NCBI GenBank assembly: GCA_016210325.1
Contig: JACQUK010000134.1
Span: 1-51,197 of the forward strand
DNA length: 51,197 nucleotides
Origin: Chloroflexota bacterium
GTDB taxonomy: Bacteria > Chloroflexota > Dehalococcoidia > Lucifugimonadales > HRBIN23
Direction of reading: 5' to 3'
Shown here: positions 15,291 to 30,517 of the stretch, piece by piece
Position numbering within the stretch: position 1 is the first letter of the stretch
Layout of the letters: every line of letters begins with the position of its first letter
The notes under the pieces: model-generated
Seen by the model: only the letters and a program-made list of their open reading frames with translations
The model's database searches: none
Told to the model about the DNA's origin: nothing
Translations under genes and position numbers: made by a program

Positions 15291-15319
15291 TTGACACGGC
15301 AGATGTGCTGTGCTACGTT
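15291..15319 (+). promoter_or_regulatory. Sigma70-type promoter of the ABC/ureohydrolase cluster
   Basis: TTGACA-17 nt-TACGTT with TG extended -10; implies a ~260-nt 5' leader. Confidence 0.65.
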
Positions 15320-15518
15320 CTGTTCATAGCTATCGGTCCAGGGAGGGACGCGGAACTCGCTCGGGCTTGGGCTGGCCGCAGACCAGGGCAGCAGCCAGCC
15401 CAGGTGGTAAGTGCTTCTTTCTTCGGCAGCGCTGTTGCTCCACACGCACGGGGGTAGAGGGTTACAGGGGTTGGAGATTTCCTGTGTTAGTGCACTCGAA
15501 ACTTTCTTGAGTTACCCC

Positions 15519-15570
15519 CAGCGGGGGACGAGGAGGCTTTCCACCTTGCTGTAAGGACAACTCGCAAAGC
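15519..15570 (+). ncRNA. Candidate guanidine-III (ykkC-III)-like riboswitch aptamer, variant
   Basis: CAGCGGGG pairs with CCTTGCTG; GGACGAGG and AGGACAA motifs; GCTTT(C)C pairs with G(C)AAAGC as a pseudoknot; ends just before the GGAGGT RBS. Confidence 0.5.
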
Positions 15571-15584
15571 GATGGAGGTACAGC

Positions 15585-17207
15585 ATGCGCAGCCAGAAGG
15601 CTTGGCTTCTGCTCATGGGGGTGCTCGGCCTCGTCTTTGTGTTCAGCCTGAGTTGTGCTTCCAGAACACCAACGCCAACCGCCCCTGCTGCCCAACCTAC
15701 CGCCACCACCCCGCGTGCCACGCCCACCCCAACCGCTACAGCGGTCCCCACGGCCAGGCCCACCAGGGTGCTGCGCATCGCTCAGGCGGCTGAGCCAGTC
15801 ACGCTCTTTGCTGGAGCGGACACGGACATCGCCAGCATCCTCTTCCACGCCAACGTGTTCGACTGCCTGGTGGACCGTAAGGCGGACCACAGCATGGGGC
15901 CCGGCCTGGCGACGTCTTGGAAGACTGTGGACCCTACAACGTGGGAGTTCACCCTGCGCCCCGGGCTCAAATGGCACGACGGCAGCCCGGTGGATGCCCA
16001 GTCGGTGGCCGACTACTGGAACTTCCTCCGCACCGACGATGCCAAGACACTGCGCGCCGCTATCCGATTCAAGGGTGTCATTAAAGACGCCCAGCCTGTC
16101 GGCACGGGCACGGTCCGCTTCGTCACTGAGCAATCGGAGCCCATCCTGCCCAACCTGCTTTCGGGCTTCAACTGCGGGGTCGGCAACGCCAAGAGCATCA
16201 AGGCACAGGGGCTCCAGAAGGAACTGGAGAAACCCGTCGGCACCGGCGCCTACCGGGTGGTGGAGTGGAAACGCCAGGTCAACGTGGAGCTGGCCCGGAA
16301 CCCCGACTGGTTCGGGGAGCGCGGCGATGGTGACACGGCCATCATCCGGCCCATACCGGACCAGGGCACTCGCGTGGCCGCCCTGCTGGCTGGCGAGGTG
16401 GACATGATCGTAACGGTGGAGCCGGACTCCATCAAGACCATCCAGGGGAATCCCAACGCCCACGTGACCAGCACCCACATGGTGGACTGGATGATCTACT
16501 ACCCGCACCTCAAGGCCACTGCCCCCATCATCTACCAGTCCAAGGAGTTCCGCCAGGCTGTCAGCATGGCCATTGACCGCGAGGCCATCGCCCGGGACAT
16601 CTTTGGCGGCTACGCGGTCCCTATGCGCGGCGTGTTCCCCAACACGAACCCCTCCTACGATGCCTCCCTGGCATGGCCCTATGACCAGAACAAGGCCAAG
16701 GAGCTTCTGGCGAAGTCTGGCTACGCCGGCCAGGAGATTGTCTTCCAGACCGGCGAGAACATCTTCCAGGGCGACCGGCTCACCACCGAGGCCATCGTCA
16801 ACATGGTCCAGAAGATAGGGGTCAACGCCAAGATCGAGCTGCTGGAGGCGGTGGTGCGGGAGCAGATTGTGCGGGAGAAGACCATGAAGGGGTTCATGAT
16901 CCGTCTTCCCGCCGATTTCGCCTATGACGGCTCTGTGTGGTGGGCCAGCATCAAGCCCGGCGCTGCCATTGACTTCTGGCGCAATGAGCGCGCAGACCAA
17001 CTGATGGGCAAAGACTGCGCCGTGATGTTCGACCTGACAGGGCGCAACGCCTGCTACAAGGAAGCCCAGAAGATCATGTTCGACGAGGTGCCTATCCTCC
17101 AGATCGTCCAGGTGGATTTCGTGGACGCGGTCTCCAGCAATTGGGACTGGAAGCGTCGTCCCAACGAGAAGATTGTCCTGGCTGACTTCAAGTACAAGGG
17201 CAGGTAG
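15585..17207 (+). CDS. Dpp/Opp family 5 ABC substrate-binding lipoprotein
   Basis: Lipobox-like LSC, Pro/Thr/Ala linker, PGLATSW...WEFTLRPGLKWHDG, PVGTGAY, RQAVSMAIDR. Confidence 0.95.
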   Translation: MRSQKAWLLLMGVLGLVFVFSLSCASRTPTPTAPAAQPTATTPRATPTPTATAVPTARPTRVLRIAQAAEPVTLFAGADTDIASILFHANVFDCLVDRKADHSMGPGLATSWKTVDPTTWEFTLRPGLKWHDGSPVDAQSVADYWNFLRTDDAKTLRAAIRFKGVIKDAQPVGTGTVRFVTEQSEPILPNLLSGFNCGVGNAKSIKAQGLQKELEKPVGTGAYRVVEWKRQVNVELARNPDWFGERGDGDTAIIRPIPDQGTRVAALLAGEVDMIVTVEPDSIKTIQGNPNAHVTSTHMVDWMIYYPHLKATAPIIYQSKEFRQAVSMAIDREAIARDIFGGYAVPMRGVFPNTNPSYDASLAWPYDQNKAKELLAKSGYAGQEIVFQTGENIFQGDRLTTEAIVNMVQKIGVNAKIELLEAVVREQIVREKTMKGFMIRLPADFAYDGSVWWASIKPGAAIDFWRNERADQLMGKDCAVMFDLTGRNACYKEAQKIMFDEVPILQIVQVDFVDAVSSNWDWKRRPNEKIVLADFKYKGR

Positions 17208-17252
17208 GACCAGGCAGGCGAGTGAGCAGCCTGCCAACGAGGTGAGAAGGGA

Positions 17253-17383
17253 CTAGGTCCTGTTGACACTGTCCGCTCCCCCTTCGATGGCCTTAGGGTG
17301 AGCGGACCCAACCAGGACCCCGCTCATGGATTCGACAAGCTCACCACGAGCGGGATAAGTGGCAGGATGTCAACAGAACCTAG
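17253..17383. mobile_element. MITE-like element with TIRs, carrying two family A REPs
   Basis: CTAGGTCCTGTTGACA / TGTCAACAGAACCTAG (15/16 inverted match). Confidence 0.75.
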
Positions 17384-17434
17384 CGGGACTGGGGAAGCGC
17401 GGCGGGTGCCGCCACCCAGCGCGAGGGTGAGGGT

Positions 17435-18352
17435 ATGGGCCGCTTTCTGGTCAGGCGGTTCCTGCGCGGCATCCTGGTAGTGCTGGGCGTCTCCACCATT
17501 GTGTTCGGCATCACCCACCTGTCCGGTGACCCGGTCTCGCTGCTGGTGGACCAGGAGTGGACCCACGAGCAGGTGGAGCAGGTACGAAGAGACCTGGGCC
17601 TGGACAAGCCTGTGTACATCCAGTACGTGCGCTACTGGCAGAACGTCCTCCTGGGCGATTGGGGCCAGTCCCTGCGGTACCGCCGGCCAGCGCTGTCCCT
17701 GGTCTGGGAACGGTTCCCGGCCACCGTGGAGCTGGCGGCGGTAACCCTCATCATCGTCGTAGCCCTTTCCATACCGGCGGGGGTCATAGCAGCCGTCAAG
17801 CGAGGAGGGTTCTGGGACCAGGCCATCATGACCCTGGCTATGGTGGGCCAGTCGTGGCCGACCTTCTGGCTGGGCCTGGTGCTGATCCTGGTCTTTGCGG
17901 TGAAGTTCCACTGGCTCCCTACCTCTGGCCGCGGCGGCTTTGACCACCTCATTCTGCCTGCGTTCACCCTGGCCTTCCTGCCCATGGCGATGATGGCCCG
18001 CCTCACCCGCTCGGCCATGCTGGACGTTCTGCGGGCAGACTACATTCGCACGGCCCGCGCCAAGGGGTTGAGGAACAGCACGGTCATTGTGCGTCACGCG
18101 CTCCGGAACGCGGCAATCCCGGTGGTCACCATCCTGGGCATTCAGGTGGGGTCCCTGCTGGCGGGCGCCGTAGTGACCGAGACGGTTTTCGCCTGGCCGG
18201 GAGTCGGCCGCGCCGCGGTGGAGGCCGTCCAGCAGCGGGACTACCCGGTGGTCCAGGCTGTGGTGCTGTTGACCTCGGTAGTCTTTGTCACGGTGAACCT
18301 GGCCGTGGACACTCTGTACGGGGTCCTGGACCCGCGTATCCGCTACGCCTAA
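17435..18352 (+). CDS. ABC permease, DppB/OppB-like
   Basis: LGLDKP, DWGQS, DYIRTARAKGL, VTETVFAWPGVG, LDPRIR. Confidence 0.95.
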   Translation: MGRFLVRRFLRGILVVLGVSTIVFGITHLSGDPVSLLVDQEWTHEQVEQVRRDLGLDKPVYIQYVRYWQNVLLGDWGQSLRYRRPALSLVWERFPATVELAAVTLIIVVALSIPAGVIAAVKRGGFWDQAIMTLAMVGQSWPTFWLGLVLILVFAVKFHWLPTSGRGGFDHLILPAFTLAFLPMAMMARLTRSAMLDVLRADYIRTARAKGLRNSTVIVRHALRNAAIPVVTILGIQVGSLLAGAVVTETVFAWPGVGRAAVEAVQQRDYPVVQAVVLLTSVVFVTVNLAVDTLYGVLDPRIRYA

Positions 18353-18361
18353 GGGGATGGG

Positions 18362-19297
18362 ATGGGCACCCCGACGGGAAACAGCATGCAGGTCAGTGCC
18401 TCCCTGGGCCAGATGGTGGACACCGCCAGGCGGCGGGAATGGCTGCGGAGGACGCTCAGACGCCTGAAGCTGCCCATCACCGGCTGGGTCAGCCTCCTCA
18501 TCCTGGTTGTCCTGGTCCTGGCTGCCATTCTAGCGCCGTTCATCTCGCCCTACGACCCCCTGGAGCAGTCCCTGGCCGACCGTTTGAGCCCCCCGTTGAC
18601 CCGCACCGCTGACGGCCTGTTCTTCCCCCTGGGCACAGACCGCCTTGGAAGGGATTTCCTGAGCCGCATGTTCTATGGCGCCCGCATTTCTCTCAGCCTG
18701 GCTTTTGCTGTCGTAGTGGGTGGGACACTGGTGGGCGTAGCAGTTGGCCTGGTTTCCGGGTTCTTCGGAAAGACGGTGGACCAGGCCCTGATGACCATCG
18801 TGGACATCCAGCTCAGCATCCCCAGCATCCTGCTGGCGATTGCCCTGCTGGCGGTGTTGGGGTCCAGCATCCCAACCCTGCTGGTCGTCCTCATCATCAG
18901 CCGGTGGATTGCCCATGCCCGCGCAGTGCGGGGACAGGTCATGTCCCTCAAGGAGAAGGAGTACATCGAGGCGGCCAGGGCCGTTGGGGCCTCCAATGCG
19001 CGGATTGTGCTGCGCCACCTGCTGCCCAACACCATGTCCATTGTGCTGGTGCTGGCGACCCTCCAGTTCGCCGATGTCATTGTGCTGGAGGCCAGCCTGA
19101 GCTTTCTGGGCCTGGGGGTCCAGCCGCCGACCCCTAGCTGGGGCGGTGAGCTGCAACAGGGGCGGGCCTTCATGCAGACCGCCTGGTGGCTTAGCACCTT
19201 CCCCGGCATTGCCCTGATGCTGGTGACGCTGAGCATGAACCGCCTGGGAGACTGGCTTCGTGATGTTCTCGACCCAGCCCTGCGCGGGTCGCTATAG
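18362..19297 (+). CDS. ABC permease, DppC/OppC-like
   Basis: LGTDRLGRD, EYIEAARAVGA, LSFLGLGVQPPTPSWG. Confidence 0.95.
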   Translation: MGTPTGNSMQVSASLGQMVDTARRREWLRRTLRRLKLPITGWVSLLILVVLVLAAILAPFISPYDPLEQSLADRLSPPLTRTADGLFFPLGTDRLGRDFLSRMFYGARISLSLAFAVVVGGTLVGVAVGLVSGFFGKTVDQALMTIVDIQLSIPSILLAIALLAVLGSSIPTLLVVLIISRWIAHARAVRGQVMSLKEKEYIEAARAVGASNARIVLRHLLPNTMSIVLVLATLQFADVIVLEASLSFLGLGVQPPTPSWGGELQQGRAFMQTAWWLSTFPGIALMLVTLSMNRLGDWLRDVLDPALRGSL

Positions 19298-19332
19298 AGA
19301 CAGCTCTTTGACCTGAGCAAAAAGGAGGACGA

Positions 19333-20313
19333 GTGAGTCAGCGCATTGAGAAGCTGTTGCCGCCGCAACTGGTCCAGAGCCGGGGGGAAACCCGCGACTA
19401 CAACATGATGAGCACCTGGATCAGGCCCTGGGACTACCAGGAGGAACTGGACGTCGGCATTATCGGACTGCCCCAGACCCTCTCTCACGGCTTTCAGGGG
19501 ACCTTCATGGGCCCCAACGCGGTCCGGGAGACCTTTGCCACCTTTGGCACGCGCAGTTTCGACTTTGATGTTGACGTGGCGGACCTGAAGGTCCGGGACG
19601 TCGGCGACGTGAAGCTGCACCCCACCAGTGTGGTGGAGACCCATGCCAACTTCGAGAGCGCCCTGGCCGATGTCTATAAGCAGCGCCCCAACTTCATCCC
19701 TATCCTCCTGGGCGGCCACCATGCGGTGGCTGCGCCATCGGTGCGCGGGTTCAAGAAGGGGCACGGTGGATTCAAAGTGGGCCTCATTGACTTCGACGCC
19801 CACAACGACCTGCGGGACCCGACCTACGAGGGACCCAGCGGCGGCACGCCCTTCCGCCAGCTCATTGACCAGGGGTACGTTGATGGCCGCAATGCTGTCC
19901 AGGTGGGGCTGCACGGGTTCCTGAGCTCCTCGGTGCTCAAGGAGTACGCTGACAAGCGCGGCCTGCGCATGGTCTCGGCGCGGGAGGTACGGGCCCGCGG
20001 CATCATCAAAGTCGTGGAGGAGGCGATAGCCCAGGCCTCGGACGGGACGGATGCCATCTACATCTCCTTTGACATGGATGCCATTGAGGCGGCGCTGGCC
20101 CCAGGGACAGTTGCCCACACGCCTGGCGGACTCATGCTGGGCGACGTCTTCGAAGCCCTCCACCTTCTGGGTCAGACGCCCAAGGTGATGGCTATGGACA
20201 TCGTGGAGATGGACCCCCTGCGCGACCTGCGCGGCATGACCCCCAGGGTGGGCTGCATGATGCTGATGTCCTTCCTGGCAGGGCTCCACCAGCGCAAGAA
20301 GCTGTACCGGTAA
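19333..20313 (+). CDS. Ureohydrolase U1, formimidoylglutamase (HutG)-like, metal site intact
   Basis: GGHH, DFDAHND, GPSGGTPFRQL, SFDMD. Confidence 0.9.
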   Translation: MSQRIEKLLPPQLVQSRGETRDYNMMSTWIRPWDYQEELDVGIIGLPQTLSHGFQGTFMGPNAVRETFATFGTRSFDFDVDVADLKVRDVGDVKLHPTSVVETHANFESALADVYKQRPNFIPILLGGHHAVAAPSVRGFKKGHGGFKVGLIDFDAHNDLRDPTYEGPSGGTPFRQLIDQGYVDGRNAVQVGLHGFLSSSVLKEYADKRGLRMVSAREVRARGIIKVVEEAIAQASDGTDAIYISFDMDAIEAALAPGTVAHTPGGLMLGDVFEALHLLGQTPKVMAMDIVEMDPLRDLRGMTPRVGCMMLMSFLAGLHQRKKLYR

Positions 20314-20323
20314 GGAGGGAGCG

Positions 20324-21298
20324 GTGACTACCAAGACCATCGAGTTCCTGGGCCCACCGCAGATCATCCGCCTGAACCAACTGGAGGGGCAGAAGGAGCG
20401 CCGGGTCAGCAACTGGATCACGGCCTGGGACTTCAGCGAGGCCATTGACGTGGGCATCGTGGGGGTCCCGCTGTCCAAGGCGGGGCACCTGCCCGCCGGA
20501 GTTGACTCCACCCCCAACGCCATTCGCAAGGCCTTCATCTACTTCACCACCTACGACCCGGACCTGGGGGTAGACATCCAGTCGCTAAAGGTCCGCTACG
20601 TGGGGGACGTCCGACTCCACGCCACGGACCTCGTGGAGAACAACCGGCGCATTGAGCAGGCCATGAAAGAGGTCTTTGGCCTCACGGGCAGGGTAGTGAC
20701 GGTCATCATGGGCGGCGATGGCTCCATCACCGCGCCGGTGGTCAGGGGGATGGCCGCCGCCACCAAGCAGAAGATCGGCCTGGTGTGGTTCGACTCCCGG
20801 GCCGACAGCCGCGACGTGGCCGAGGGCGGGCAAAGCGACGTGACCCCTCTGCGCAACATCCTGGAGGCCGGCGTCGTGCAGGGGAGCAGCACCGCCGTGG
20901 TGGGTCTCCACGGGTTCGCCAGCTCAATGGAAGAGCACGGGTGGGCGGCGGGCCAGGGCGTCACGCTGATTACCGCACGGCAGGCCCGCAAAGAGGGCAT
21001 CGCCAACGTCACTCAACGGGCACTGGAAGTGGCCTCCAAGGGCACCGACGCGGTGTACGTCAGCGTGGATGGCACCGTGCTGGACATGTCCTCCAGCGCC
21101 TCTCACCTGGCAACGGTGCCGGGGGGGCTGTCCTGGCTGGAGGTGCAGGAAGCACTGTTCCTGCTGGGACAGGGCACCAGGGTCAAGGCCCTGGACATCA
21201 CCGCAATAGACACCTATGACGACATCAAGGAGGTTGTTGCCAGGACCAGCGCCGGACTGCTGCTGGCCTTCCTGGCGGGAGTCAAGCTTCGCAAATAG
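20324..21298 (+). CDS. Ureohydrolase-fold U2, HutG-like, degenerate metal site
   Basis: GVPLSK N-terminal motif; GGDG, FDSRAD and SVDGT replace GGDH, DAHxD and DxD. Confidence 0.85.
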   Translation: MTTKTIEFLGPPQIIRLNQLEGQKERRVSNWITAWDFSEAIDVGIVGVPLSKAGHLPAGVDSTPNAIRKAFIYFTTYDPDLGVDIQSLKVRYVGDVRLHATDLVENNRRIEQAMKEVFGLTGRVVTVIMGGDGSITAPVVRGMAAATKQKIGLVWFDSRADSRDVAEGGQSDVTPLRNILEAGVVQGSSTAVVGLHGFASSMEEHGWAAGQGVTLITARQARKEGIANVTQRALEVASKGTDAVYVSVDGTVLDMSSSASHLATVPGGLSWLEVQEALFLLGQGTRVKALDITAIDTYDDIKEVVARTSAGLLLAFLAGVKLRK

Positions 21299-21331
21299 GG
21301 TGGCCACGGAAGCCACGATGAGGAGGATACT

Positions 21332-22255
21332 ATGGCAGCGCCGGCAGGGGAGCGAGTTGTTTACCTGAATGGCAAGTTTGTCCCCGAGAGCCAGGCGACG
21401 GTCTCGATCTCTGACCACGGGTTCACCCACGGCGACGCCGCCTTCGACACCATGCGGACCTTCAAAGGCAAGGTTTTCAAGCTCAAGGAGCATGTGGAGC
21501 GACTATACCGCTCGTGCAAGTACGCCGGCATAGACCCCGGTATCTCCCAGGGGGAGATGTCACGTCTGACGGACGAGGTGGTGGAGCGCAACAAGCACCT
21601 GCTGGGCCCCAGCGACGACTTCTGGGTGACCCAGCGAGTCACGCGCGGGGTCCCCTCGGCGCGGCCCGGCGAGAAGGAGCAGCCCACCATCATCATCCTG
21701 TGCCGGCCACTGCCGTGGGAGCGGGCCAAGTTCTACCAGACGGGTATCAGCATGAGGACTTCGCCCATCCGCCGAACACCCCCACAGTACCTGGACCCCC
21801 GGGCCAAGCTCCAGAACTACCTGAACCAGGTGATGGCCGAGATGCTGGCCAAGCAGGGAGACCCGGACGTCTGGAGCCTGCTGCTGGATGAGAACGGCAA
21901 TGTGGCCGAAGGCTCCGGCTACAACTTCTTCATCGTGCGGGATGGGAGGGTCATCACCTCCCACGAGCGCTACGTCCTGGGGGGCATCAGCCGCCAGACA
22001 ACGATGGAGATCTGCCAGGAACTGAACATCCCGGCCGCAGAGATGGACTTCAACCTCTACGATGTGTATACCGCTGACGAGGCGTTCATCACCGCCACCA
22101 GCGTCTGCCTGCTGCCGGTGCGCTCCGTTGACACCCGGACCATTGGGGATGGGGCCATCCCCGGCTCCATCACAGGGCGTATTCTCGGCACGTGGAGCGG
22201 GATGGTGGGCGTGGACATCGCGGGACAGTACCTGGCCCACATCAAGAGCGCCTGA
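21332..22255 (+). CDS. Fold-type IV PLP aminotransferase (IlvE/Dat-like)
   Basis: DHGFTHGDAAFDT, HVERL, RAKLQNY PLP lysine, EGSGYNFF, LGGISR, ADEAFIT. Confidence 0.9.
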   Translation: MAAPAGERVVYLNGKFVPESQATVSISDHGFTHGDAAFDTMRTFKGKVFKLKEHVERLYRSCKYAGIDPGISQGEMSRLTDEVVERNKHLLGPSDDFWVTQRVTRGVPSARPGEKEQPTIIILCRPLPWERAKFYQTGISMRTSPIRRTPPQYLDPRAKLQNYLNQVMAEMLAKQGDPDVWSLLLDENGNVAEGSGYNFFIVRDGRVITSHERYVLGGISRQTTMEICQELNIPAAEMDFNLYDVYTADEAFITATSVCLLPVRSVDTRTIGDGAIPGSITGRILGTWSGMVGVDIAGQYLAHIKSA

Positions 22256-22277
22256 GGAAGGGCGTCCGGAGGTGCCT

Positions 22278-23282: not shown

Positions 23283-24299
23283 ATGCCTCTGAACAAGGAC
23301 CCCCTGCCCATGTTCGCCGGCATCCTCACCTTCTTGCGGGTGCCCCACGGGGACCTCGAGGACCTGCAAGAGGGGATGATAGCCATCGCAGGGGTCACCT
23401 ACGACCTCTCCAACACCGCCCGCATCGGCTCCCGCTTCGGCCCGCGAAACATGCGGGAGACCTCCACCTTCTATGCGGGCAGCATCGAGACCGGCAGCGA
23501 GGTCATCGAGGTCACCACCAAGGAGGTGGTGCGCTACAATCCGAAGCCCCGGATGCTGGACCTGGGCGACCTCAACGTGTACCCCGTGGACTGGCCCAAG
23601 ACCGAGGCATCCCTCCGGCGGGCCATGCGCGAGATCACGCGACGGGGCGCCTTCCCCGTCATCCTGGGGGGCGATAACTTCATCACCACCGCCCTGATTC
23701 AAGGCTACAAGGATGCGGTGGTAGCAAAAGGTGGCCGGAGGGTGGGGTACATCCAGCTTTCCCGCAATCTTGACTTGGGGAAAGAGGACCCTGTGTGGGG
23801 CAACGTGTGGCGGGGCGCCACTGCTCGCCAAATTATCGAGATGGGTGCTGTGGACCCCCGCAACATGGTCTGGGTCGGGCCTCACGGCTACGTGCGGGCC
23901 GAGGAGTGGGTCTACGCGCAGGAGCTGAACGCACGGGTGTTTACCCTGAAGGACATCCGCAAACAGGGCATCCTGCCGGTGATGCGCCAGGCTGTAGACA
24001 TCGCGGGTGCAGGCTGCGATGGCATCTACGTGAGCGTTGACCTGGACGTAGTGGACGGCTGCTACACCGCCGGCACCGCGGTCCCGAACCTGGACGGGGT
24101 CCGCGATGTGGAGCTGGTGGACGCCATGGACGTGCTGTGGGATGCCAAGGTTGGCGCAGTGGGGGTGGTGGGGGTGAACCCAACGGTGGAGTTCGTGTAC
24201 CACACCAGTCAGCGCATCGCGGTCACCGCCATTCTGCGGCTCATTGCCCCGCGGATTGCTGCGGTCTCGCCCACGCCTTCCGTTCCAGCCCGAACCTAG
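23283..24299 (+). CDS. Ureohydrolase-fold U4, agmatinase-like, degenerate metal site
   Basis: GSRFGP; GGDN, QLSRNLD, WRGAT; SVDLD retained. Confidence 0.85.
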   Translation: MPLNKDPLPMFAGILTFLRVPHGDLEDLQEGMIAIAGVTYDLSNTARIGSRFGPRNMRETSTFYAGSIETGSEVIEVTTKEVVRYNPKPRMLDLGDLNVYPVDWPKTEASLRRAMREITRRGAFPVILGGDNFITTALIQGYKDAVVAKGGRRVGYIQLSRNLDLGKEDPVWGNVWRGATARQIIEMGAVDPRNMVWVGPHGYVRAEEWVYAQELNARVFTLKDIRKQGILPVMRQAVDIAGAGCDGIYVSVDLDVVDGCYTAGTAVPNLDGVRDVELVDAMDVLWDAKVGAVGVVGVNPTVEFVYHTSQRIAVTAILRLIAPRIAAVSPTPSVPART

Positions 24300-24324: not shown

Positions 24325-25314
24325 ATGGTGGCAGGAAGACCGGGACCCTGGTATGAAGGCGCGGCCACCTTCCTGCACGCGCCGATGGTGGACTTTGATA
24401 CACTGAAACCGGGCATGGTGGCGGTGAGCGGCGCTCCCCACGACAGCACCCACTCCACTCGCTTTGGCACGCGGACGGGCCCCAAGGGGGTCCGAGAGGC
24501 CTCTTTGCCCTTGGCCGACAAGCTGCGCAACGCCGGCAAGAAAGGCCTGGTGGACGTGGCCACCGGGGCGCGGCTGGTCATGAAGGATGGTGTGCTGGCC
24601 GACGTGGGCGACGCCAATGTGTACCCCACCGACGTGATGAAGACCACTGAGGGCATCGCCGGCCTGGTCTACGAGGTGGTGAAGCGGGGCGCCTTCTCGG
24701 TATGCCTGGGTGGCGATCACTACGTCGGCTACCCCTCATGCCTTGGCGCTACCCGGGCCATTGTGGAGAAGGACCCCCGGGTGAAAGTGGGCTACATCCA
24801 CGTGGACGGGCACCTGGACTTCACCGACGGCAACCCCATCTTTGGACGGTACAACCACGGCACCAACGCCCGGCGCATCTCCGAGTTGCCCATGGTGTCG
24901 CCCAGTAACATGGCCTGGGTGGGCATCCAGGGGTGGGTCAGCACCGAGCAGTGGGACCTCATCCACAAGAATGGCGCCAAGATCTTCACCCACAAGGACC
25001 TGTGGGAGCTGGGCGCACGAGAGGTGGCCCGCCGCGCCGCCGACCACGCCATCCAGGGTTGCGACTACATCTACGTATCCCTGGACATTGACTGCATTGA
25101 CACCGGCTTCGCGCCCGGCACCGGTGGCGTGGTCATCGGCAGCGTAACCCCGCTGATGTACCTCCAGATCATCGAAGAGCTGGCCAAGTACCCTATCCTG
25201 GCCTTTGACCTGACGGAGGTCACCCCCCGTCTGGACTACACCGAGCGGACGCCGCGGATGGCGGCCGAGGCGGTCCTGCGCTTCATTGGGCGCAAGGTGT
25301 TCGAGATTCACTAG
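24325..25314 (+). CDS. Ureohydrolase U5, agmatinase/guanidinobutyrase-like, all catalytic motifs intact
   Basis: GGDH, HVDGHLD, YNHGT, SLDID, DLTEV. Confidence 0.9.
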   Translation: MVAGRPGPWYEGAATFLHAPMVDFDTLKPGMVAVSGAPHDSTHSTRFGTRTGPKGVREASLPLADKLRNAGKKGLVDVATGARLVMKDGVLADVGDANVYPTDVMKTTEGIAGLVYEVVKRGAFSVCLGGDHYVGYPSCLGATRAIVEKDPRVKVGYIHVDGHLDFTDGNPIFGRYNHGTNARRISELPMVSPSNMAWVGIQGWVSTEQWDLIHKNGAKIFTHKDLWELGAREVARRAADHAIQGCDYIYVSLDIDCIDTGFAPGTGGVVIGSVTPLMYLQIIEELAKYPILAFDLTEVTPRLDYTERTPRMAAEAVLRFIGRKVFEIH

Positions 25315-25331
25315 GGAAGAGGAGGCCCCCG

Positions 25332-26633
25332 ATGGTGAAGAGCGTCGTGCGCGGGCAGGCCAGCAAGGAGCTCTGGGAGATGGCCAGGGAGTTCATCCCG
25401 GGGGCGACCCTGCACCTGCGGGGCCTGCCGGATGAGGTAGCCACGGTCTTTGTCCGCGGCAAGGGGAGCCGCATCTGGGACGTGGACGGCAATGAGTACA
25501 TTGACTATCTGATCGGGGCAGGTCCCCTCATCCTGGGGCATGCCCACCCTGCTGTGGTCCAGGCGGTGAAGGAACGCCTGGAGATGGGCTCCCAGTTCTA
25601 CCAGCTTACCGATGTGGCCATACGACTGGTGAAGAAGATAGTGGAGGCGGTCCCCTGCGCCGAGGCCCTGAAGTTCACCAACTCGGGCAACGAGGCCACC
25701 TATGTGGCCCTGCGGCTGGCGCGAGGCTACACCGGCAAGCCCAAGATCCTGAAGTTCGAGGGCGGCTATCACGGCAGCCACGACTACGCGGCCTGGAGCA
25801 CTACACCATCGGGGCCACCCAACTACCCGAAGGGCGAGCCAGACTCCGACGGGGTGCCCAGCGTGTTGGGCGACCGCGTTCTGGTGGCGCCCTTCAACAA
25901 TACTGACTACGTCTGCTCTCTCATCCGCCAGCACAAGGACGAGTTGGCGGCGGTCATCGTGGAGCCCTTCTTCCGCATCATCAAGCCCAAGCCGGGCTTT
26001 CTGGAGGCCCTGCGACAGAACACCAAGGAGTGCGGTGTGCTGCTGGTCTTCGACGAGGTGGTTACCGGCTTCCGTATCGCCTGGGGGGGTGCCCAGGAGC
26101 TTTATGGCGTCGTCCCTGACTTGGCGACCCTGGGCAAAGCCATCGGCGGCGGGTTCCCCGTGGGTGCCGTGGTGGGCCCCAAGGAGATCATGGGCCGACT
26201 GGACCCGGCACTGAAACCCCAGGGACGGTACGTAATGACCAGCGGCACCTTCAGCGGCAACCCCATCACTGCCACGGCCGGCCTGACCACCCTCAACGAG
26301 CTGGAGAAGCCAGGTACGTACGATGCGCTACGGCGCTCCGGCGAGCGACTCAAGAAAGGCTTCAAGCAGGTCTGCGACCTCCTGGAGACGCCCGCGCAGG
26401 TGCTGGGAGAGGGGCCGATTGTGGACATCCTGTTCACTGACGAGGAGATCGTAGACTACCGCTCCACCATGAGGGCCGACCAGGAGAAGGGGCGCAGGGT
26501 GAGCATCGAGATGATTAAGCGGGGAGTCTTCCGTCCGCCTGGCGGGAAGTTCTACATCTCCAAGGCCCACACGGATGCCGACCTGGACGAGACGGTCAAC
26601 ATCTTCGAGGCTGCCCTGCGCGCGGCGTACTAA
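25332..26633 (+). CDS. Class III PLP aminotransferase (GSA-aminomutase-like subfamily)
   Basis: WDVDGNEYIDY, NSGNEA, FEGGYHG, FDEVVTGFR, LGKAIGGG. Confidence 0.9.
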   Translation: MVKSVVRGQASKELWEMAREFIPGATLHLRGLPDEVATVFVRGKGSRIWDVDGNEYIDYLIGAGPLILGHAHPAVVQAVKERLEMGSQFYQLTDVAIRLVKKIVEAVPCAEALKFTNSGNEATYVALRLARGYTGKPKILKFEGGYHGSHDYAAWSTTPSGPPNYPKGEPDSDGVPSVLGDRVLVAPFNNTDYVCSLIRQHKDELAAVIVEPFFRIIKPKPGFLEALRQNTKECGVLLVFDEVVTGFRIAWGGAQELYGVVPDLATLGKAIGGGFPVGAVVGPKEIMGRLDPALKPQGRYVMTSGTFSGNPITATAGLTTLNELEKPGTYDALRRSGERLKKGFKQVCDLLETPAQVLGEGPIVDILFTDEEIVDYRSTMRADQEKGRRVSIEMIKRGVFRPPGGKFYISKAHTDADLDETVNIFEAALRAAY

Positions 26634-26710
26634 GGCTCTATATCCATCGGCTGCACACACTTCGCATGGCACCTCTCTATGCTGGTGAAAAGGGAAAGAG
26701 GCGCTGAGCC

Positions 26711-28411
26711 ATGAGCGGAAAAACCACCAGTTGGGGCGTGCGGAAGAGCCGGATAACCGCCGAGCACGGGATGGTGCTCTCGGAGCACGCGGCGGTAACC
26801 AGGGCGGGCCTGGAGGTGCTCATGGCCGGGGGCAACGCCGTGGACGCTGCGGTGGCCATGGGGTTTGCCATTGGCGTGTGCGGGCCTTTCATGAGCGGTC
26901 TGGGCGGCGGTGGCCACATGGTCATCTACAACGCCCGCAACAAGAAAAGCGCCGTGGTGGACTACAACATGCGGGCACCCAAGGCAGCCACGCCCGCCAT
27001 GTATGAGCTGCTCCCAGGCCCCCCAGAGGGCAACTTTGGCTGGCGCCCGGTGAAGGACCAGGCAAATGCGGTGGGCTACCGTTCCATCACGGTCCCCGGC
27101 ACCATCGCCGGGCTGTGCCTGGCCCTGGAGAGGTTCGGCACCATGGGCCGCCAGGACGTCATGCGCCACGCCATTCGGTACGCCGAGGAAGGGTTCGACG
27201 CAGACATCTTCCTGGCCCTGTCCATCGCCTCGCGCTGGGGCATCATTACCCAGTTCCCGGAGACGATGGGGCTGTTCCGGAACGCTGACGGGTCACTGCT
27301 GACCTCACCGCTTTCACAGAAGGCCGCGGGGAAGATGGTGCAGAAAGACCTGGCCCGCACACTCAGGAGGATAGCGCAAGAGGGACCGGATGCCTTCTAT
27401 CGTGGCGAAGTCGCCAGGGCCATCGTGCGGCACGTGCTCGGGCATGGCGGGCTGCTGGGCGAGGAGGACCTGGCCTCCTACCAGGCGGACGTGTGGTCTC
27501 CAGGAGGGATAGCTTCCTACCGTGGCTACACTGTCGTGGCCCCGCCCATCGCAAGCGGTGGGCCGACGCTGGTGGAAGCCCTGCACATCCTGGACAACTT
27601 CGACATGGCTTCTTTGCCCCATAACTCTGCCGAAGCTCTGCATCTTATTGCCGAGGCCCTGCGGCTGGCTTTTGCCGACCGCTACCACCTGATGGGGGAC
27701 CCGGACCTCATCCCTACGCCCTACGAAAAGCTAGCTTCACCGGGCTACGCCAAGGAGTTGGCCCGGTCTGTCCGTCCCGATAGGGATCTGCCGCTGCCCC
27801 CGGTCAGAGAGCTCCAGAACACCCTTGTTGAGGCCGCGCTGGCCGGCCAGCACGGTGCAGACACCACACAGAGCTGTGTGGTGGACAAAGAGCGCAACAT
27901 GGTCTCTATAACCCAGACCTTGCAGACCTGGAGCGGAGTCATCCCCCCGGGGACTGGGGTACCCCTGAACGGCGCCATGAGCTGGTTCAATCCAGAGCCG
28001 GGGACGCCCAACTCAGTCCAGGGTGGCAAACGCATCCTCTCCAACATGTCCCCGGTCCTGGTGCTGAAGGACAGCAGGCCGGTCATGGCGCTGGGCGCCC
28101 CCGGAGGCCGAAAGATCGTCAGTGCGGTGCTCCAAGTGCTGGTGAACATCCTGGACTACGGCATGGAGCTTAACCAGGCCATCGCCGCCCCGCGGCTGGA
28201 TGCCAGCGCCCTGGACCTGCTGGCCGACGACCGATTGCCGCAGCGGAGCATCCAAGGTCTTCAGGCCCGGGGACACCGCGTGGCGACGGTCCGCGAGGAG
28301 TTGCTGGCACGGTACTTTGCGGGGCCGGCTGGAATACAGGTGGACGGGGGCACCGGGAAGCTGCGCAGCGGGCTATGCGAGTTCGACCTGGCCTCAGCCG
28401 CGGGGTACTAG
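26711..28411 (+). CDS. Divergent gamma-glutamyltransferase-like Ntn hydrolase
   Basis: GGNAVDAAVA, SGLGGGG, TVPGT, D|TTQ nucleophile site, GAPGG. Confidence 0.9.
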   Translation: MSGKTTSWGVRKSRITAEHGMVLSEHAAVTRAGLEVLMAGGNAVDAAVAMGFAIGVCGPFMSGLGGGGHMVIYNARNKKSAVVDYNMRAPKAATPAMYELLPGPPEGNFGWRPVKDQANAVGYRSITVPGTIAGLCLALERFGTMGRQDVMRHAIRYAEEGFDADIFLALSIASRWGIITQFPETMGLFRNADGSLLTSPLSQKAAGKMVQKDLARTLRRIAQEGPDAFYRGEVARAIVRHVLGHGGLLGEEDLASYQADVWSPGGIASYRGYTVVAPPIASGGPTLVEALHILDNFDMASLPHNSAEALHLIAEALRLAFADRYHLMGDPDLIPTPYEKLASPGYAKELARSVRPDRDLPLPPVRELQNTLVEAALAGQHGADTTQSCVVDKERNMVSITQTLQTWSGVIPPGTGVPLNGAMSWFNPEPGTPNSVQGGKRILSNMSPVLVLKDSRPVMALGAPGGRKIVSAVLQVLVNILDYGMELNQAIAAPRLDASALDLLADDRLPQRSIQGLQARGHRVATVREELLARYFAGPAGIQVDGGTGKLRSGLCEFDLASAAGY

Positions 28412-28503
28412 ACTGAATACCGTAGGGCAGGGCGCCGGGAGCGTCCAAAGCCCCGTGCTGCGTGTCCTCGGCCCGCAATCTCAGGCTGGGAGGAGGCATG
28501 TCT

Positions 28504-29487
28504 ATGGTGAAACACCTGCTGCCACCCGGACTCATCCTGGCGTCGAGCCCTCTGGGGGCCAACCCGGACTACAACATGCTGAACAGCGTCATCCTGCCCT
28601 GGGACTTCAAGGAAGACATCCATGCCGGTATCATCGGCGTCCCGTTCAACAAAGGGACCCACATGTTCAAGGGGACCAATGAGGGACCCAACGCGGTGCG
28701 GGAGACCTTCCTCTCCTTCGCCACCCGCAGCTTCGATTTTGGCGTGGACATCATGAACCTGAAAGTGCGGGACATCGGTGACGTGCAGATGCACCCCACC
28801 GATGTGGTGCGGTGCCACGCCAACACTCAGGAGGCGCTGACAGAGCTTTACCAGCGTCATCCGGGGTTTGTGCCTATCATCATCGGTGGCGACCACGCTA
28901 TCGCAGCCCCCTCGTGCCGCGCCCTCCGTGACGGTCGCAGGTTCAGGCGGGTGGGCCTGGTTGACTTCGACGCACACAACGACCTGCGGGACCCAGCCTA
29001 CGACGGCCCCAGCAGCGGCACACCGTTCCGTCAGCTCATTGATGGGGGGTACGTGAACGGGCGCAACGCGGTCCAGGTGGGCTTGCACGGCTTTCTCTCC
29101 TCCTCGGTGCTCAAAGACTATGCCGACAAGCACGGCCTCCGCATGGTCTCGGCCAGGGAGGTGCGCCAGCGGGGCATCGAGGATGTGGTGGAAGAGGCCC
29201 TGGCCCAGGCCGGCGATGGGACAGACGCCATCTATGCCTCCTTCGACATTGATGCCATTGAGGCGGCCTTCGCGCCAGGCACCGGCTCCCACACCCCCGG
29301 CGGGCTGCTGCTGGGCGATGTTTTCGAGGCCATGTACATGCTGGGCCGCGACCCCAGGGTGGCGGCCATGGACCTGGTGGAGTTGGACCCCATCAAGGAC
29401 CTCAAAAAGATGACCTCCCGTGTAGGGTGCATGATGATCCTGACCTTCCTGGTGGGGCTCCAAGAGCGCCTTCAGCTCTACGCCTAG
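28504..29487 (+). CDS. Ureohydrolase U6, HutG-like paralog of U1, metal site intact
   Basis: GGDH, DFDAHND, GPSSGTPFRQL, SFDID; AGGAGG RBS 7 nt before ATG 28504. Confidence 0.9.
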   Translation: MVKHLLPPGLILASSPLGANPDYNMLNSVILPWDFKEDIHAGIIGVPFNKGTHMFKGTNEGPNAVRETFLSFATRSFDFGVDIMNLKVRDIGDVQMHPTDVVRCHANTQEALTELYQRHPGFVPIIIGGDHAIAAPSCRALRDGRRFRRVGLVDFDAHNDLRDPAYDGPSSGTPFRQLIDGGYVNGRNAVQVGLHGFLSSSVLKDYADKHGLRMVSAREVRQRGIEDVVEEALAQAGDGTDAIYASFDIDAIEAAFAPGTGSHTPGGLLLGDVFEAMYMLGRDPRVAAMDLVELDPIKDLKKMTSRVGCMMILTFLVGLQERLQLYA

Positions 29488-29527
29488 TGGATATGTAGTG
29501 CCCGCAACCGCTAGCGAGGAGAGGCCC

Positions 29528-30517
29528 ATGCCCCTGAACCGGGACCCGCTGCCCGCCTTCGCCGGGATCCTTACCATGCTACGGGCACCCAAGGCTGAGG
29601 TGGAGGACCTGAAGGAAGGCATGGTGGCCATCCTGGGCGTCCCCTACGACCTTTCTACCACGGGCCGCATCGGCGCCCGGTTCGGCCCCCGCAGCATGCG
29701 TGAGACGGCCACCTACTATGCCAGCCATATTGAAAGGGGGGACCTCATCGAGGTCACTACGGGCCAAGTCCTGGTGGCCCCCAAGGAACTGCGGCTCGTG
29801 GACCTGGGCGACCTGAACGTCTACCCCGTTGACTGGCCCAAGACGGAGGCAGCCCTCCGGGAGGCCATCGCCCGAATCCTCGAACGCGGGGCCTTCCCCG
29901 TTGTCCTTGGTGGCGACCACTTCATCTCCTATCCTCTGACCCTGGGCCTCCACGACGCCATCCTCCGCCGTGGCGGCAGGAGAATCGGCTATATCCAGGT
30001 CTCCAACCGGCTGGACCTGGGGCAGGAGGACCCCCTCTGGGGCAGGGTGTGGACGGGAGCTACCGCTAGGAGGGTCCTGGAGTCAGGCGCCGTGGACCCC
30101 CGCAACATGGTCTGGCTGGGTGCCCACGGGTACGTCCCCCTGGAGCAACTGGAGACGGCCAGAGAGTTGGATCTCCGGGTCTTCACCCTGGGCGACATGC
30201 GACGTGGAGGTATCCGAGCAGTGGCCCGCCAGGCTGTGGAAGTGGCTTCACAGGGCTGCGACGCCGTCTACCTGAGCCTGGACATGGGTGTGGTCAATGG
30301 GAGCTACGCCGCTGGTACTGCTGCTCCCAGCTTCGACGGGCTGCGGGATGTCGAGCTGCTTGAGGTCATGGACGAGCTGGCGCAATCCCCCATCGGCGCC
30401 TTGGACATCGTGGGGGTGAACCCCACCGTCGAGTTCGTGTACCACACCACACAGCGGCTGGCGGTCACCGCCCTCATCCGCTTCATTGCCCCCAGGGTCC
30501 TGGGCGGCACGGTCTGA
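29528..30517 (+). CDS. Ureohydrolase-fold U7, paralog of U4, degenerate metal site
   Basis: GGDH kept, but QVSNRLD, WTGAT and SLDMG; shares LNVYPVDWPKTEA and VGVNPTVEFVYHT with U4. Confidence 0.85.
   Translation: MPLNRDPLPAFAGILTMLRAPKAEVEDLKEGMVAILGVPYDLSTTGRIGARFGPRSMRETATYYASHIERGDLIEVTTGQVLVAPKELRLVDLGDLNVYPVDWPKTEAALREAIARILERGAFPVVLGGDHFISYPLTLGLHDAILRRGGRRIGYIQVSNRLDLGQEDPLWGRVWTGATARRVLESGAVDPRNMVWLGAHGYVPLEQLETARELDLRVFTLGDMRRGGIRAVARQAVEVASQGCDAVYLSLDMGVVNGSYAAGTAAPSFDGLRDVELLEVMDELAQSPIGALDIVGVNPTVEFVYHTTQRLAVTALIRFIAPRVLGGTV

What the first reader, a model, noticed from the sequence alone, without database searches (positions are those of the whole stretch)
15291..30517. Riboswitch-led ABC uptake plus seven-ureohydrolase catabolic cluster
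Seen: 13 co-directional, mostly tightly spaced genes: binding protein, two permeases, U1, U2, class IV aminotransferase, U3, U4, U5, class III aminotransferase, GGT-like hydrolase, U6, U7. Established: ureohydrolases cleave guanidino/formimino C-N bonds; the characterised catabolic loci I know (speB, hutG, gbuA, gdmH, mfmAB) have one or two such genes. Inference: an undescribed pathway that imports and dismantles a complex or multiply guanidinylated/amidinated compound. Amidino removal would expose amines for the two transaminases, and the Ntn hydrolase would cleave an amide. The substrate cannot be read from sequence.
Basis: partly seen in the sequence, partly recalled or inferred. Interest (0 to 1): 0.92.

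Follow-up and report, generated by a model that had tools for sequence, protein, structure and literature searches.

The report
Arginase-fold array with conserved pseudo-subunits
A groundwater Dehalococcoidia bacterium carries a 13-gene uptake-and-breakdown operon with seven arginase-like genes, of which only three can bind the catalytic metals; the other four look like conserved non-catalytic partner subunits, so the operon probably makes about three multi-subunit enzymes.

Summary
The gene array is real. Thirteen co-directional, tightly spaced genes (15585-30517, + strand) encode an SBP_bac_5 binding protein, two permeases, seven arginase-family proteins, a class IV and a class III aminotransferase, and a GGT.

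The "riboswitch" is not supported. There is no Rfam hit, no excess fold stability and no conserved leader.

Only U1, U5 and U6 keep all six metal ligands. U2, U3, U4 and U7 have lost 3-5 of them.

The paralogues fall into ancient classes: alpha and eps are intact; beta, gamma and delta are degenerate (tree). Their order is fixed (alpha-beta; gamma-delta-eps) in other Dehalococcoidia lineages and in metagenome contigs. These include stand-alone gamma-delta-eps-delta-eps operons and nine-gene tandem arrays. The degenerate classes are under purifying selection (dN/dS 0.06-0.11).

Best reading (about 0.5): these are heteromeric ureohydrolases with pseudo-subunits, like metformin hydrolase, but with independent origins and up to three subunit types. 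The substrate is unknown.

This is a new variant of a known kind. Subunit assembly remains untested: the complex prediction gave no verdict and no RNA data were listed.

The parts
15291..15584 (+). 5' leader or promoter region of the operon. It contains a TTGACA hexamer at 15291-15296. It is not a recognisable riboswitch.
   Evidence: Sequence read. No Rfam match. Fold z-score -0.32. No second copy in the genome. No similarity to other loci.
15585..17207 (+). Family-5 (Opp/Dpp/Nik-type) substrate-binding protein, 540 aa. The N-terminus MRSQKAWLLLMGVLGLVFVFSLSCA looks like a lipoprotein signal; this is read by eye and the motif is recalled.
   Evidence: Pfam SBP_bac_5 2e-69. All NCBIfam hits are far below their cut-offs; the best is nickel SBP at 127.9 bits against a cut-off of 600. 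The best PDB hit is 115 bits to an unnamed SBP.
17435..18352 (+). ABC permease (DppB/OppB type)
   Evidence: Pfam BPD_transp_1 9.1e-46 plus BPD_transp_1_N
18362..19297 (+). ABC permease (DppC/OppC type)
   Evidence: Pfam BPD_transp_1 1.3e-31 plus OppC_N
19333..20313 (+). U1, class alpha: HutG-like arginase-fold protein. All six metal ligands are present (with a GGHH variant motif). Presumed catalytic.
   Evidence: hutG TIGR01227 scores 192.3 bits, below the 229.15 cut-off.
20324..21298 (+). U2, class beta: ligand-deficient paralogue keeping 3 of 6 ligands (GDRDDT). Sister class to alpha. Presumed partner subunit of U1.
   Evidence: Nearest PDB entry is HutG 3m1r at 145.8 bits.
21332..22255 (+). 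Class IV (BCAT / D-amino-acid type) aminotransferase. It follows alpha-beta here and in the G014-group loci.
   Evidence: Pfam 1.3e-45. NCBIfam hits are below cut-offs. PDB BCAT 196 bits. Synteny.
22278..23258 (+). U3, class gamma: ligand-deficient paralogue keeping 1 of 6 ligands. The start is taken at GTG 22278.
23283..24299 (+). U4, class delta: ligand-deficient paralogue keeping 3 of 6 ligands. The arginase fold is retained.
   Evidence: AF2 model has pLDDT 76.5 and pTM 0.82. Foldseek top hits are guanidinase 9fek and metformin hydrolase chains, TM 0.72-0.76.
24325..25314 (+). U5, class eps: all six ligands present. Presumed catalytic subunit of the gamma-delta-eps module.
   Evidence: Nearest PDB entry is guanidine hydrolase 7esr at 124.4 bits.
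25332..26633 (+). Class III aminotransferase of the glutamate-1-semialdehyde aminomutase (HemL)-like subfamily
   Evidence: Pfam 7.4e-60. PRK00062 scores 387.2 against a cut-off of 398, and GntE 342 against 525. PDB GSA aminomutases score about 300 bits.
26711..28411 (+). Gamma-glutamyltransferase-family Ntn hydrolase. No obvious signal peptide is seen (by eye). A TTQ nucleophile region is present (motif recalled).
   Evidence: Pfam 2.1e-128. TIGR00066 scores 391.6, above the 357.85 cut-off. Translation.
28504..29487 (+). U6, class alpha (65% identical to U1): all six ligands present. The longest ORF starts at 28462; ATG 28504 is the likelier start.
   Evidence: Nearest PDB entry is HutG 3m1r at 193.6 bits.
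29498..30517 (+). U7, class delta (62-63% identical to U4): keeps 3 of 6 ligands. Presumed partner subunit of U6.
30600..30625 (.). GC-rich inverted repeat (TCCCCCTC ... GAGGGGGA) between the convergent U7 and MutS2 genes. It may be a terminator.
   Evidence: Seen by eye. The terminator scan did not list it.

Best explanation
The locus is one operon for binding-protein-dependent import and cytoplasmic breakdown of one or more amidino-, guanidino- or formimino-bearing nitrogen compounds.

Its seven arginase-fold proteins are probably not seven enzymes.
- Three of them (U1 and U6, class alpha; U5, class eps) can form the binuclear metal site.
- Four (U2, class beta; U3, class gamma; U4 and U7, class delta) are ancient, selected, ligand-deficient paralogues. 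Each is always encoded next to a catalytic paralogue.

I infer that they assemble into hetero-oligomeric ureohydrolases, roughly U1+U2, U3+U4+U5 and U6+U7. In these the degenerate chains would act as structural or pocket-shaping pseudo-subunits, as MefH-beta/MetCb does in metformin hydrolase.

The amines set free would then be transaminated by the class IV and class III aminotransferases. The GGT would cleave a gamma-glutamyl-type amide.

What is shown: gene content, ligand loss, class structure, fixed gene order, purifying selection and restricted distribution.
What is inferred: subunit assembly, catalytic roles and the order of the pathway.
The substrate is unknown.
For: 1. Ligand pattern (H, DxHxD, DxD).
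- U1, U5 and U6 keep 6/6. U2, U4 and U7 keep 3/6. U3 keeps 1/6.
- The same pattern holds in every one of the 39 paralogues aligned from six genomes. Alpha, eps and zeta keep 6/6, beta 3/6, gamma 1-4/6 and delta 3-4/6. Gamma and delta carry a conserved S-S-Q/R in place of D-x-H.

2. Tree.
- Alpha and beta are sister classes (100/99).
- Gamma and delta are sisters (100/99), and together they are sister to eps (95/91).
- So the pseudo-subunit classes arose by duplication of their catalytic neighbours, as reported for MetCa/MetCb (PMC11271267 passages).

3. Fixed gene order.
- All 7 G014-group MAG loci read zeta-alpha-beta-gamma-delta-eps-delta. Six of them continue with -eps-eps-DUF1989; the seventh is cut by its contig end.
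- All 4 fetched loci of family f63 read gamma-delta-eps-delta-eps.
- In 10 of 12 metagenome loci eps lies directly downstream of delta. The other 2 contigs end at delta.

4. The f63 pentads sit among unrelated housekeeping genes such as AlaRS, MoxR and acyl-CoA ligase. The module is therefore self-contained.

5. dN/dS between two MAGs is 0.025-0.112 for all nine tandem paralogues. Beta is 0.112, gamma 0.090 and the two deltas 0.087 and 0.059.

6. The delta model keeps the arginase fold. Its best fold matches include guanidinase and metformin hydrolase chains.

7. Precedent.
- MefH is alpha2beta4, and only its alpha subunit carries the ligands (PMC11399263 abstract and passages).
- MetCb is a metal-free pseudoenzyme, and its clade shows 3-5 ligand mutations (PMC11271267 passages).

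8. None of the seven reaches an equivalog cut-off. Two other genes in the genome pass the agmatinase cut-off.
Against: - There is no direct evidence that the chains bind each other.
- In most lineages gamma and delta keep 4 of 6 ligands. The region around the lost ligands is itself strongly conserved in delta (invariant GYIQ.S..LD.G). They could therefore be mononuclear or otherwise active enzymes rather than inert subunits.
- Gene numbers are not in simple ratios. G000 has 2 alpha, 1 beta, 1 gamma, 2 delta and 1 eps. The G014 group has 2 delta and 3 eps. U7 (delta) sits beside an alpha rather than an eps.
- The lineages with these arrays carry 13-16 arginase-family matches per genome. That also fits plain paralogue expansion for substrate breadth.
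- Unlike the MefH/MetCaCb loci, no hypA/hypB nickel chaperone lies in the window. No HypA was found in the MAG, which is 82% complete.
- No ABC ATPase gene is in the operon. Four oligo_HPY ATPase genes lie on other contigs.
- Conservation of the class III aminotransferase is weak (37% identity, opposite strand in the G014 group).
- The GGT is not part of the G014-group locus.
Confidence: 0.5

Rival explanations
1. Plain paralogue expansion. Each arginase-fold protein is a separate homo-oligomer with its own role. The intact ones hydrolyse different guanidino or formimino substrates. The ligand-deficient ones are mononuclear or non-canonical hydrolases, or binding or regulatory proteins.
For: - Arginase-family matches number 13, 16 and 15 in G014, G193 and G240, against 2 and 0 in G009 and G205.
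- In most lineages gamma and delta keep 4 of 6 ligands, with a conserved replacement motif.
- Gene numbers are not stoichiometric.
- Purified MetCb forms a homohexamer on its own (PMC11271267 passage).
Against: - Every degenerate gene seen lies directly beside an intact one, in a fixed order, across lineages at about 50-60% identity.
- In G000 the degenerate genes have decayed further (U3 keeps 1 of 6 ligands), yet the genes stay intact.
- Gamma-delta-eps travels as a unit.
Confidence: 0.25
2. The binding protein and permeases import nickel or a metal chelate for Ni-dependent ureohydrolases. On this reading they do not import the organic substrate.
For: - The best NCBIfam hits of the binding protein are nickel SBPs: Opp5A_nikA at 127.9 bits and nikA at 108.7 bits.
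- NikA structures match at about 72-75 bits.
- The closest solved relatives of eps and delta are Ni-dependent guanidine hydrolases.
- Permease genes lie directly beside delta-eps in metagenome locus L030.
Against: - All these scores are far below their cut-offs (600 and 393).
- An unnamed SBP (115 bits) and the agrocinopine-binding AccA (about 95 bits) score higher in the PDB search.
- The f63 pentads have no adjacent transporter.
- The metal used by these enzymes is not known.
Confidence: 0.1
3. Seven active ureohydrolases, under a riboswitch, successively strip amidino groups from a complex, multiply guanidinylated compound.
For: There are seven arginase-family genes in one operon with an importer, two aminotransferases and an Ntn hydrolase.
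Against: - Four of the seven lack 3-5 of the 6 metal ligands.
- The riboswitch finds no support.
- The arginase modules recur without the accessory genes.
Confidence: 0.05

Closest known systems
Metformin hydrolase MefH / MfmAB / MetCaCb and dimethylguanidine hydrolase DmgH (heteromeric Ni-dependent ureohydrolases)
   Same: - Adjacent arginase-fold genes, one with all six ligands and one with degenerate ligands.
- The pseudo-subunit is derived by duplication of the catalytic one.
- Foldseek places the delta model on metformin hydrolase chains at TM 0.76.
- The literature describes an alpha2beta4 hexamer that is active only when the subunits are co-expressed.
   Different: - These proteins are not in the MetCa/MetCb clades. 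By sequence, alpha and beta are nearest HutG, and eps and delta are nearest guanidine hydrolase. Mfm chains score only 56-98 bits.
- There are three distinct degenerate classes and a three-class module (gamma-delta-eps), not one pair.
- Arrays reach 5-11 genes.
- No hypA/hypB lies nearby.
- The host phylum is Chloroflexota. The published survey of 56 pairs lists Proteobacteria, Actinomycetota, Acidobacteriota and Planctomycetota only. I could not see its supplementary list.
- Assembly is untested here.
Guanidine hydrolase GdmH (Synechocystis Sll1077, PDB 7esr/7oi1) and Nitrospira guanidinase (9fek)
   Same: They are the nearest solved relatives of eps (124 bits) and delta (98 bits). The delta model matches 9fek at TM 0.72-0.74.
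   Different: Identity in the fold alignments is only about 25%. GdmH and guanidinase are homomeric, single-gene enzymes. The substrate of eps is unknown.
Formimidoylglutamase HutG (B. subtilis, PDB 3m1r; TIGR01227)
   Same: It is the nearest relative of alpha (U6 193.6 bits, U1 similar) and of beta (145.8 bits).
   Different: Scores fall below the equivalog cut-off (192 against 229.15). No hut genes are in the locus. Alpha is paired with a degenerate beta and a class IV aminotransferase.
Guanidino-acid catabolism in Pseudomonas: GbuA/GpuA ureohydrolases with transaminases (arginine transaminase pathway; recalled from general knowledge)
   Same: The logic is the same: a ureohydrolase acts alongside aminotransferases. 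GbuA and GpuA structures are among the top hits (3nio and 3nip).
   Different: Those loci have single homomeric ureohydrolases, with no pseudo-subunits and no tandem arrays.

Membership tests
Arginase / ureohydrolase family (PF00491) | Sequence match to the family profile above the gathering score | tested here: met
   All seven score 155-232 bits against a cut-off of 22.
Arginase / ureohydrolase family (PF00491) | Six ligands of the binuclear metal site (H; D-x-H-x-D; D-x-D) | tested here: not met
   Met by U1, U5 and U6 (6/6). Not met by U2 (3/6), U3 (1/6), U4 (3/6) or U7 (3/6). The ligand pattern is as given for MetCa in the PMC11271267 passage.
MefH/MetCaCb-type heteromeric ureohydrolase | Adjacent gene pair: one intact and one ligand-degenerate arginase-fold gene | tested here: met
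   U1-U2, U4-U5 (with U3) and U6-U7. The same adjacency is seen in all related loci.
MefH/MetCaCb-type heteromeric ureohydrolase | Physical hetero-oligomer; activity only on co-expression | not testable with these tools
   This needs co-purification and an activity assay.
MefH/MetCaCb-type heteromeric ureohydrolase | Membership of the MetCa and MetCb clades | tested here: not met
   Mfm chains score 56-98 bits. That is below HutG (146-194 bits) for alpha and beta, and below guanidine hydrolase (98-124 bits) for delta and eps.
MefH/MetCaCb-type heteromeric ureohydrolase | Neighbouring hypA/hypB nickel chaperone genes | tested here: not met
   None appears in the window's Pfam survey. PF01155 (HypA) was not found in the 82%-complete MAG. 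HypB was not searched.
Formimidoylglutamase HutG (TIGR01227) | Score at or above the equivalog cut-off of 229.15 bits | tested here: not met
   Best scores are U1 at 192.3 and U6 at 192.1 bits.
Agmatinase SpeB (TIGR01230) | Score at or above the equivalog cut-off of 174.3 bits | tested here: not met
   The best of the seven is U6 at 130.3 bits. Two genes on other contigs do pass, at 187.2 and 225.5 bits.
Guanidine or other known riboswitch (Rfam 15) | Covariance-model match in the leader | tested here: not met
   No gathering-score hit in the window. None with E<0.6 in 14900-15700. None other than cobalamin riboswitches elsewhere in 7 related loci.
Opp/Dpp/Nik-type ABC importer | Family-5 binding protein plus two permeases plus two ATPases in one locus | tested here: inconclusive
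   The binding protein and two permeases are present. No ATPase gene is in the operon or window. Four oligo_HPY ATPase genes lie on other contigs.
Gamma-glutamyltransferase (TIGR00066) | Score at or above the equivalog cut-off of 357.85 bits | tested here: met
   391.6 bits.
Glutamate-1-semialdehyde aminomutase HemL | Score at or above the NCBIfam cut-offs | tested here: not met
   PRK00062 scores 387.2 against 398. TIGR00713 scores 374.9 against 527.3.

The most novel reading that the evidence does not exclude
Gamma-delta-eps would be the first ureohydrolase built from three different arginase-fold chains: one catalytic (eps) and two distinct pseudo-subunits (gamma and delta). It would have evolved independently of metformin hydrolase. 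Alpha-beta would be a second, separate origin of a pseudo-subunit within the same operon. The delta chain would be a shared scaffold that pairs with alternative catalytic chains (eps in U4-U5, alpha in U6-U7). The 5-11-gene arrays in some Dehalococcoidia would then be a combinatorial kit for tuning substrate specificity towards guanidino compounds in groundwater and soil.
Probability: 0.3. Interest if true: 0.85.

Novelty: new variant of a known kind. Interest (0 to 1): 0.74.

Why it matters
- Arginase-family enzymes were long taken to be homo-oligomers. Metformin hydrolase (2024) was reported as the first two-subunit case and as a recently evolved one.
- These arrays suggest that recruiting ligand-deficient paralogues as partners is old and recurrent. 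Here it has gone further: three degenerate classes, fixed gene order across orders of Dehalococcoidia, and purifying selection.
- If the assembly is real, counting "ureohydrolase genes" overestimates the number of enzymes. It would also give a natural system for studying how pseudo-subunits shape substrate pockets.
- It also points to an unrecognised guanidino-compound niche. Uncultured groundwater and soil Chloroflexota carry up to 16 arginase-family genes per 3-Mb genome.

Tried and rejected
- **Complex prediction.** I submitted U3+U4+U5, each as an alignment, with U5 as the partner (collected). The score was 0.28 and 0.27 against a mark of 0.32, and the controls were not run. That is no verdict, and I count it neither for nor against binding. 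A pass would in any case have been expected from likeness to solved arginase trimers.
- **RNA evidence for co-transcription.** The run search listed four DNA (groundwater metagenome) holders from one study and no RNA holder. I laid two DNA runs only to check the assembly. The short 'joints' there have sides of 25 letters or fewer. I read them as cross-matches between paralogues or other organisms, not as rearrangements.
- **Riboswitch.**
  - Rfam at gathering score over the window.
  - Rfam at E<=10 over the leader.
  - Rfam over 7 related loci, which found only cobalamin riboswitches next to an unrelated FecCD/BtuF transporter.
  - Folding compared with shuffles.
  - A search for a second copy in the genome.
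  - Blastn of the leader against all other loci.
  - All were negative.
- **Substrate clues.** The binding protein, the class IV aminotransferase and the class III aminotransferase have only distant named relatives in PDB and NCBIfam. No substrate can be assigned. Urease alpha (PF00449) was not found in the MAG, but the genome is only 82% complete.
- **A MutS2-side ABC ATPase.** The 549-aa + strand ORF after U7 (30665-32314) has no Pfam hit. The real gene there is MutS2 on the - strand.
- **Distribution beyond Dehalococcoidia.**
  - 0 of 400 other Chloroflexota genomes have a delta orthologue at E<=1e-75.
  - 0 of 400 other class genomes have a beta orthologue at E<=1e-50.
  - These are samples, not proof of absence.
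  - Of 8 loci from the genome-contig scan, one (L020, 28% identity) is not an array.
- **Literature.** Four searches listed no paper on ureohydrolase arrays or pseudo-subunits in Chloroflexota. I read only the abstract and passages of PMC11399263 and passages of PMC11271267.

Full report
**What is there**

The window is a whole 51.2-kb contig of a 2.29-Mb MAG that is 82% complete. Titles of its relatives' records place it in the Dehalococcoidia. Two groundwater-metagenome DNA runs hold it.

Between 15585 and 30517 the + strand carries 13 genes:
- a family-5 binding protein;
- two permeases;
- U1 and U2;
- a class IV aminotransferase;
- U3, U4 and U5;
- a HemL-like class III aminotransferase;
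- a GGT;
- U6 and U7.

All seven U proteins match PF00491 at E 1e-45 to 1e-69.

I refined two starts. U3 starts at GTG 22278, because the listed ORF overlaps the upstream gene. U6 starts at ATG 28504. With these starts every gap is 92 nt or less, except 227 nt after the binding-protein gene.

The operon ends at 30517. MutS2 converges from the other strand, and a GC-rich inverted repeat lies between them (seen by eye).

Seven of the genome's nine arginase-family matches are here. Contig pieces from two DNA runs bridge most gene junctions without differences. They may come from the source sample, so they are not independent.

**The riboswitch claim fails every test I could run**
- No Rfam family matches the window at gathering score.
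- In the leader the only hit at E<=10 is noise.
- The leader folds no better than shuffles (z -0.32).
- It occurs only once in the genome.
- It resembles nothing in the other fetched loci.
- Related loci carry no guanidine-type riboswitch.

**Only three of the seven can be canonical ureohydrolases**

I aligned the seven and then 39 paralogues from six genomes. The six metal ligands follow the pattern H; D-x-H-x-D; D-x-D, as listed for MetCa in PMC11271267.
- U1, U5 and U6 keep all six.
- U2 keeps 3, U3 keeps 1, U4 keeps 3 and U7 keeps 3.

**The paralogues form ancient classes with a fixed order**

Pairwise identities and a maximum-likelihood tree define the classes:
- alpha (U1, U6), intact;
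- beta (U2), degenerate and sister to alpha (100/99);
- eps (U5), intact;
- gamma (U3) and delta (U4, U7), degenerate, sisters to each other (100/99), and together sister to eps (95/91);
- zeta, intact, absent from this window.

Ligand states by class are constant across genomes. Alpha, eps and zeta keep 6/6, beta 3/6, gamma 1-4/6 and delta 3-4/6. Gamma and delta always carry S-S-Q/R in place of D-x-H.

*The G014 group.* A relative in the same order but a different family (G014) has nine arginase-fold genes in tandem, followed by a DUF1989 gene. Seven MAG loci of that group read zeta-alpha-beta-gamma-delta-eps-delta. Six continue with -eps-eps-DUF1989; the seventh is cut by its contig end. Where the flank reaches, a further alpha-beta-class IV aminotransferase triad lies upstream, with a class III aminotransferase on the opposite strand. 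In G014 a PermB-PermC-SBP set lies nearby, again without ATPase genes.

*Family f63.* In a class-wide sample, 13 of 401 genomes have a delta orthologue. These are G000 plus 12 of 12 genomes of family f63, which belongs to another order. All 4 fetched f63 loci read gamma-delta-eps-delta-eps. They sit among unrelated housekeeping genes.

*Metagenome contigs.* Twelve contigs contain delta. Eps follows it directly in 10, and the other 2 contigs end at delta. Gamma precedes delta in 5. One contig (L037) has two DUF1989 genes and an unknown gene just upstream of gamma-delta-eps.

*Wider samples.* No delta orthologue was found in 400 other Chloroflexota genomes. No beta orthologue was found in 400 other class genomes.

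*Global search.* Among 1.84 billion cluster representatives, 67 match U4 at E<=1e-30. These are a mixture of intact and ligand-deficient proteins.

**The degenerate genes are not decaying**

Between two G014-group MAGs, dN/dS is 0.025-0.112 for all nine paralogues. Beta is 0.112, gamma 0.090 and the two deltas 0.087 and 0.059.

An AlphaFold model of U4 (pLDDT 76.5, pTM 0.82) has the arginase fold. Its best Foldseek matches are Nitrospira guanidinase and metformin hydrolase chains, at TM 0.72-0.76.

**How it compares with known enzymes**
- By sequence, alpha and beta are nearest to B. subtilis HutG (193.6 and 145.8 bits).
- Eps and delta are nearest to guanidine hydrolases 7esr and 9fek (124 and 98 bits).
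- Metformin hydrolase chains score lower, at 56-98 bits.
- None of the seven reaches an NCBIfam equivalog cut-off.
- Two genes on other contigs pass the agmatinase cut-off. Housekeeping agmatinase is therefore probably encoded elsewhere.

The literature I read says the following.
- MefH is an alpha2beta4 hexamer, and only alpha carries the ligands. This was called unprecedented in the family (PMC11399263 abstract and passages).
[quoted passage not shown] MetCb is a metal-free pseudoenzyme that caps the MetCa pocket.
- A survey found 56 such pairs in four phyla, none of them Chloroflexota (PMC11271267 passages). I could not see the supplementary list.
- Four full-text searches listed nothing on such arrays in Chloroflexota.

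**Interpretation**

The best-supported reading is that the ligand-deficient paralogues are partner subunits of hetero-oligomeric ureohydrolases: alpha with beta; gamma and delta with eps; and, in this window, U6 with U7. The operon would then make about three enzymes, not seven.

This rests on five lines of evidence:
- ligand loss;
- the sister relationship of each degenerate class to its catalytic neighbour;
- invariant adjacency and order;
- the stand-alone gamma-delta-eps modules;
- purifying selection, together with the MefH precedent.

It is inference. The one complex prediction gave no verdict and counts neither way.

The main rival is plain paralogue expansion. These lineages carry 13-16 arginase-family matches per genome, and the degenerate chains might have activities of their own. 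That is plausible because gamma and delta usually keep 4 of 6 ligands and a conserved replacement motif.

A second, orthogonal rival is that the importer brings in nickel rather than the substrate.

The accessory genes are consistent with handling amines and amides released from amidino compounds:
- the class IV aminotransferase, conserved next to alpha-beta;
- the HemL-like aminotransferase;
- a cytoplasmic-looking GGT that passes TIGR00066;
- DUF1989 in relatives.

They do not identify a substrate. No urease alpha or HypA was found in this incomplete MAG. The ABC ATPases must be supplied from elsewhere in the genome.

**Verdict**

It is wrong in counting seven enzymes.

The finding is a new variant of a known kind, namely heteromeric ureohydrolases with pseudo-subunits. 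It would surprise specialists if the three-chain assembly is real.

Noticed in passing
window 9177-10799 (-), 10929-12308 (+), 12587-13687 (-): Just upstream of the operon lie a second, better-scoring GGT gene (Pfam 9.6e-155), a PALP-family PLP enzyme and a DUF763 protein. It is not known whether they work with the operon.
   Followed up: no
window 13856-15037 (-); L029 1080-1817 (+): The gene divergent from the operon encodes a pentapeptide-repeat plus Ion_trans_2 protein. In G014 the gene divergent from the homologous permease operon is also an ion-channel protein (Ion_trans_2 + TrkA_N). This may be a remnant of synteny or a coincidence.
   Followed up: no
window 4001-6000: A dip in G+C to 0.56, against about 0.65-0.69 around it. 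It contains a 454-aa ORF (4684-6048, -) with no Pfam match.
   Followed up: no
window 42213-45224 (-): A 1003-aa protein with N6_Mtase, Eco57I and MmeI_Mtase domains. It is a likely type IIG/IIL restriction-modification enzyme.
   Followed up: no
L011 6269-6880 (-); L037 5908-6528 and 6450-7208 (+): DUF1989 genes (the urea-amidolyase-associated / TMAO-demethylase N-domain family) lie directly beside the arginase arrays. There is one after the ninth paralogue in the G014 group and two upstream of gamma-delta-eps in a metagenome contig. This is a recurring but unexplained association.
   Followed up: partly
G193:C1 2419650-2421468 and 2522591-2525732; G240:C1 597062-598997 and 1285432-1288231: Further tandem pairs and triples of arginase-family genes lie elsewhere in the f63 genomes. 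Total matches are 16 and 15 per genome. Their ligand states were not examined.
   Followed up: no
f63 genomes, gamma and second-delta matches (e.g. G254, G176, G122, G267): Several matches are flagged with 1-2 in-frame stop codons. The alignments probably run across the stop of the tightly packed upstream gene, but broken copies were not excluded.
   Followed up: no
L017 19378-19560; L019 19650-19836: Cobalamin riboswitches (93-96 bits) lie a few kb from the G014-group arrays, next to FecCD / Peripla_BP_2 / ABC_tran genes. They are unrelated to the arginase genes.
   Followed up: no
L012 767-2284 (-): In G014 a DDE transposase gene lies beside the alpha-beta-AT4 / AT3 block, on the side facing the nine-gene array about 10 kb away. 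The other G014-group MAGs have the two blocks closer together.
   Followed up: no
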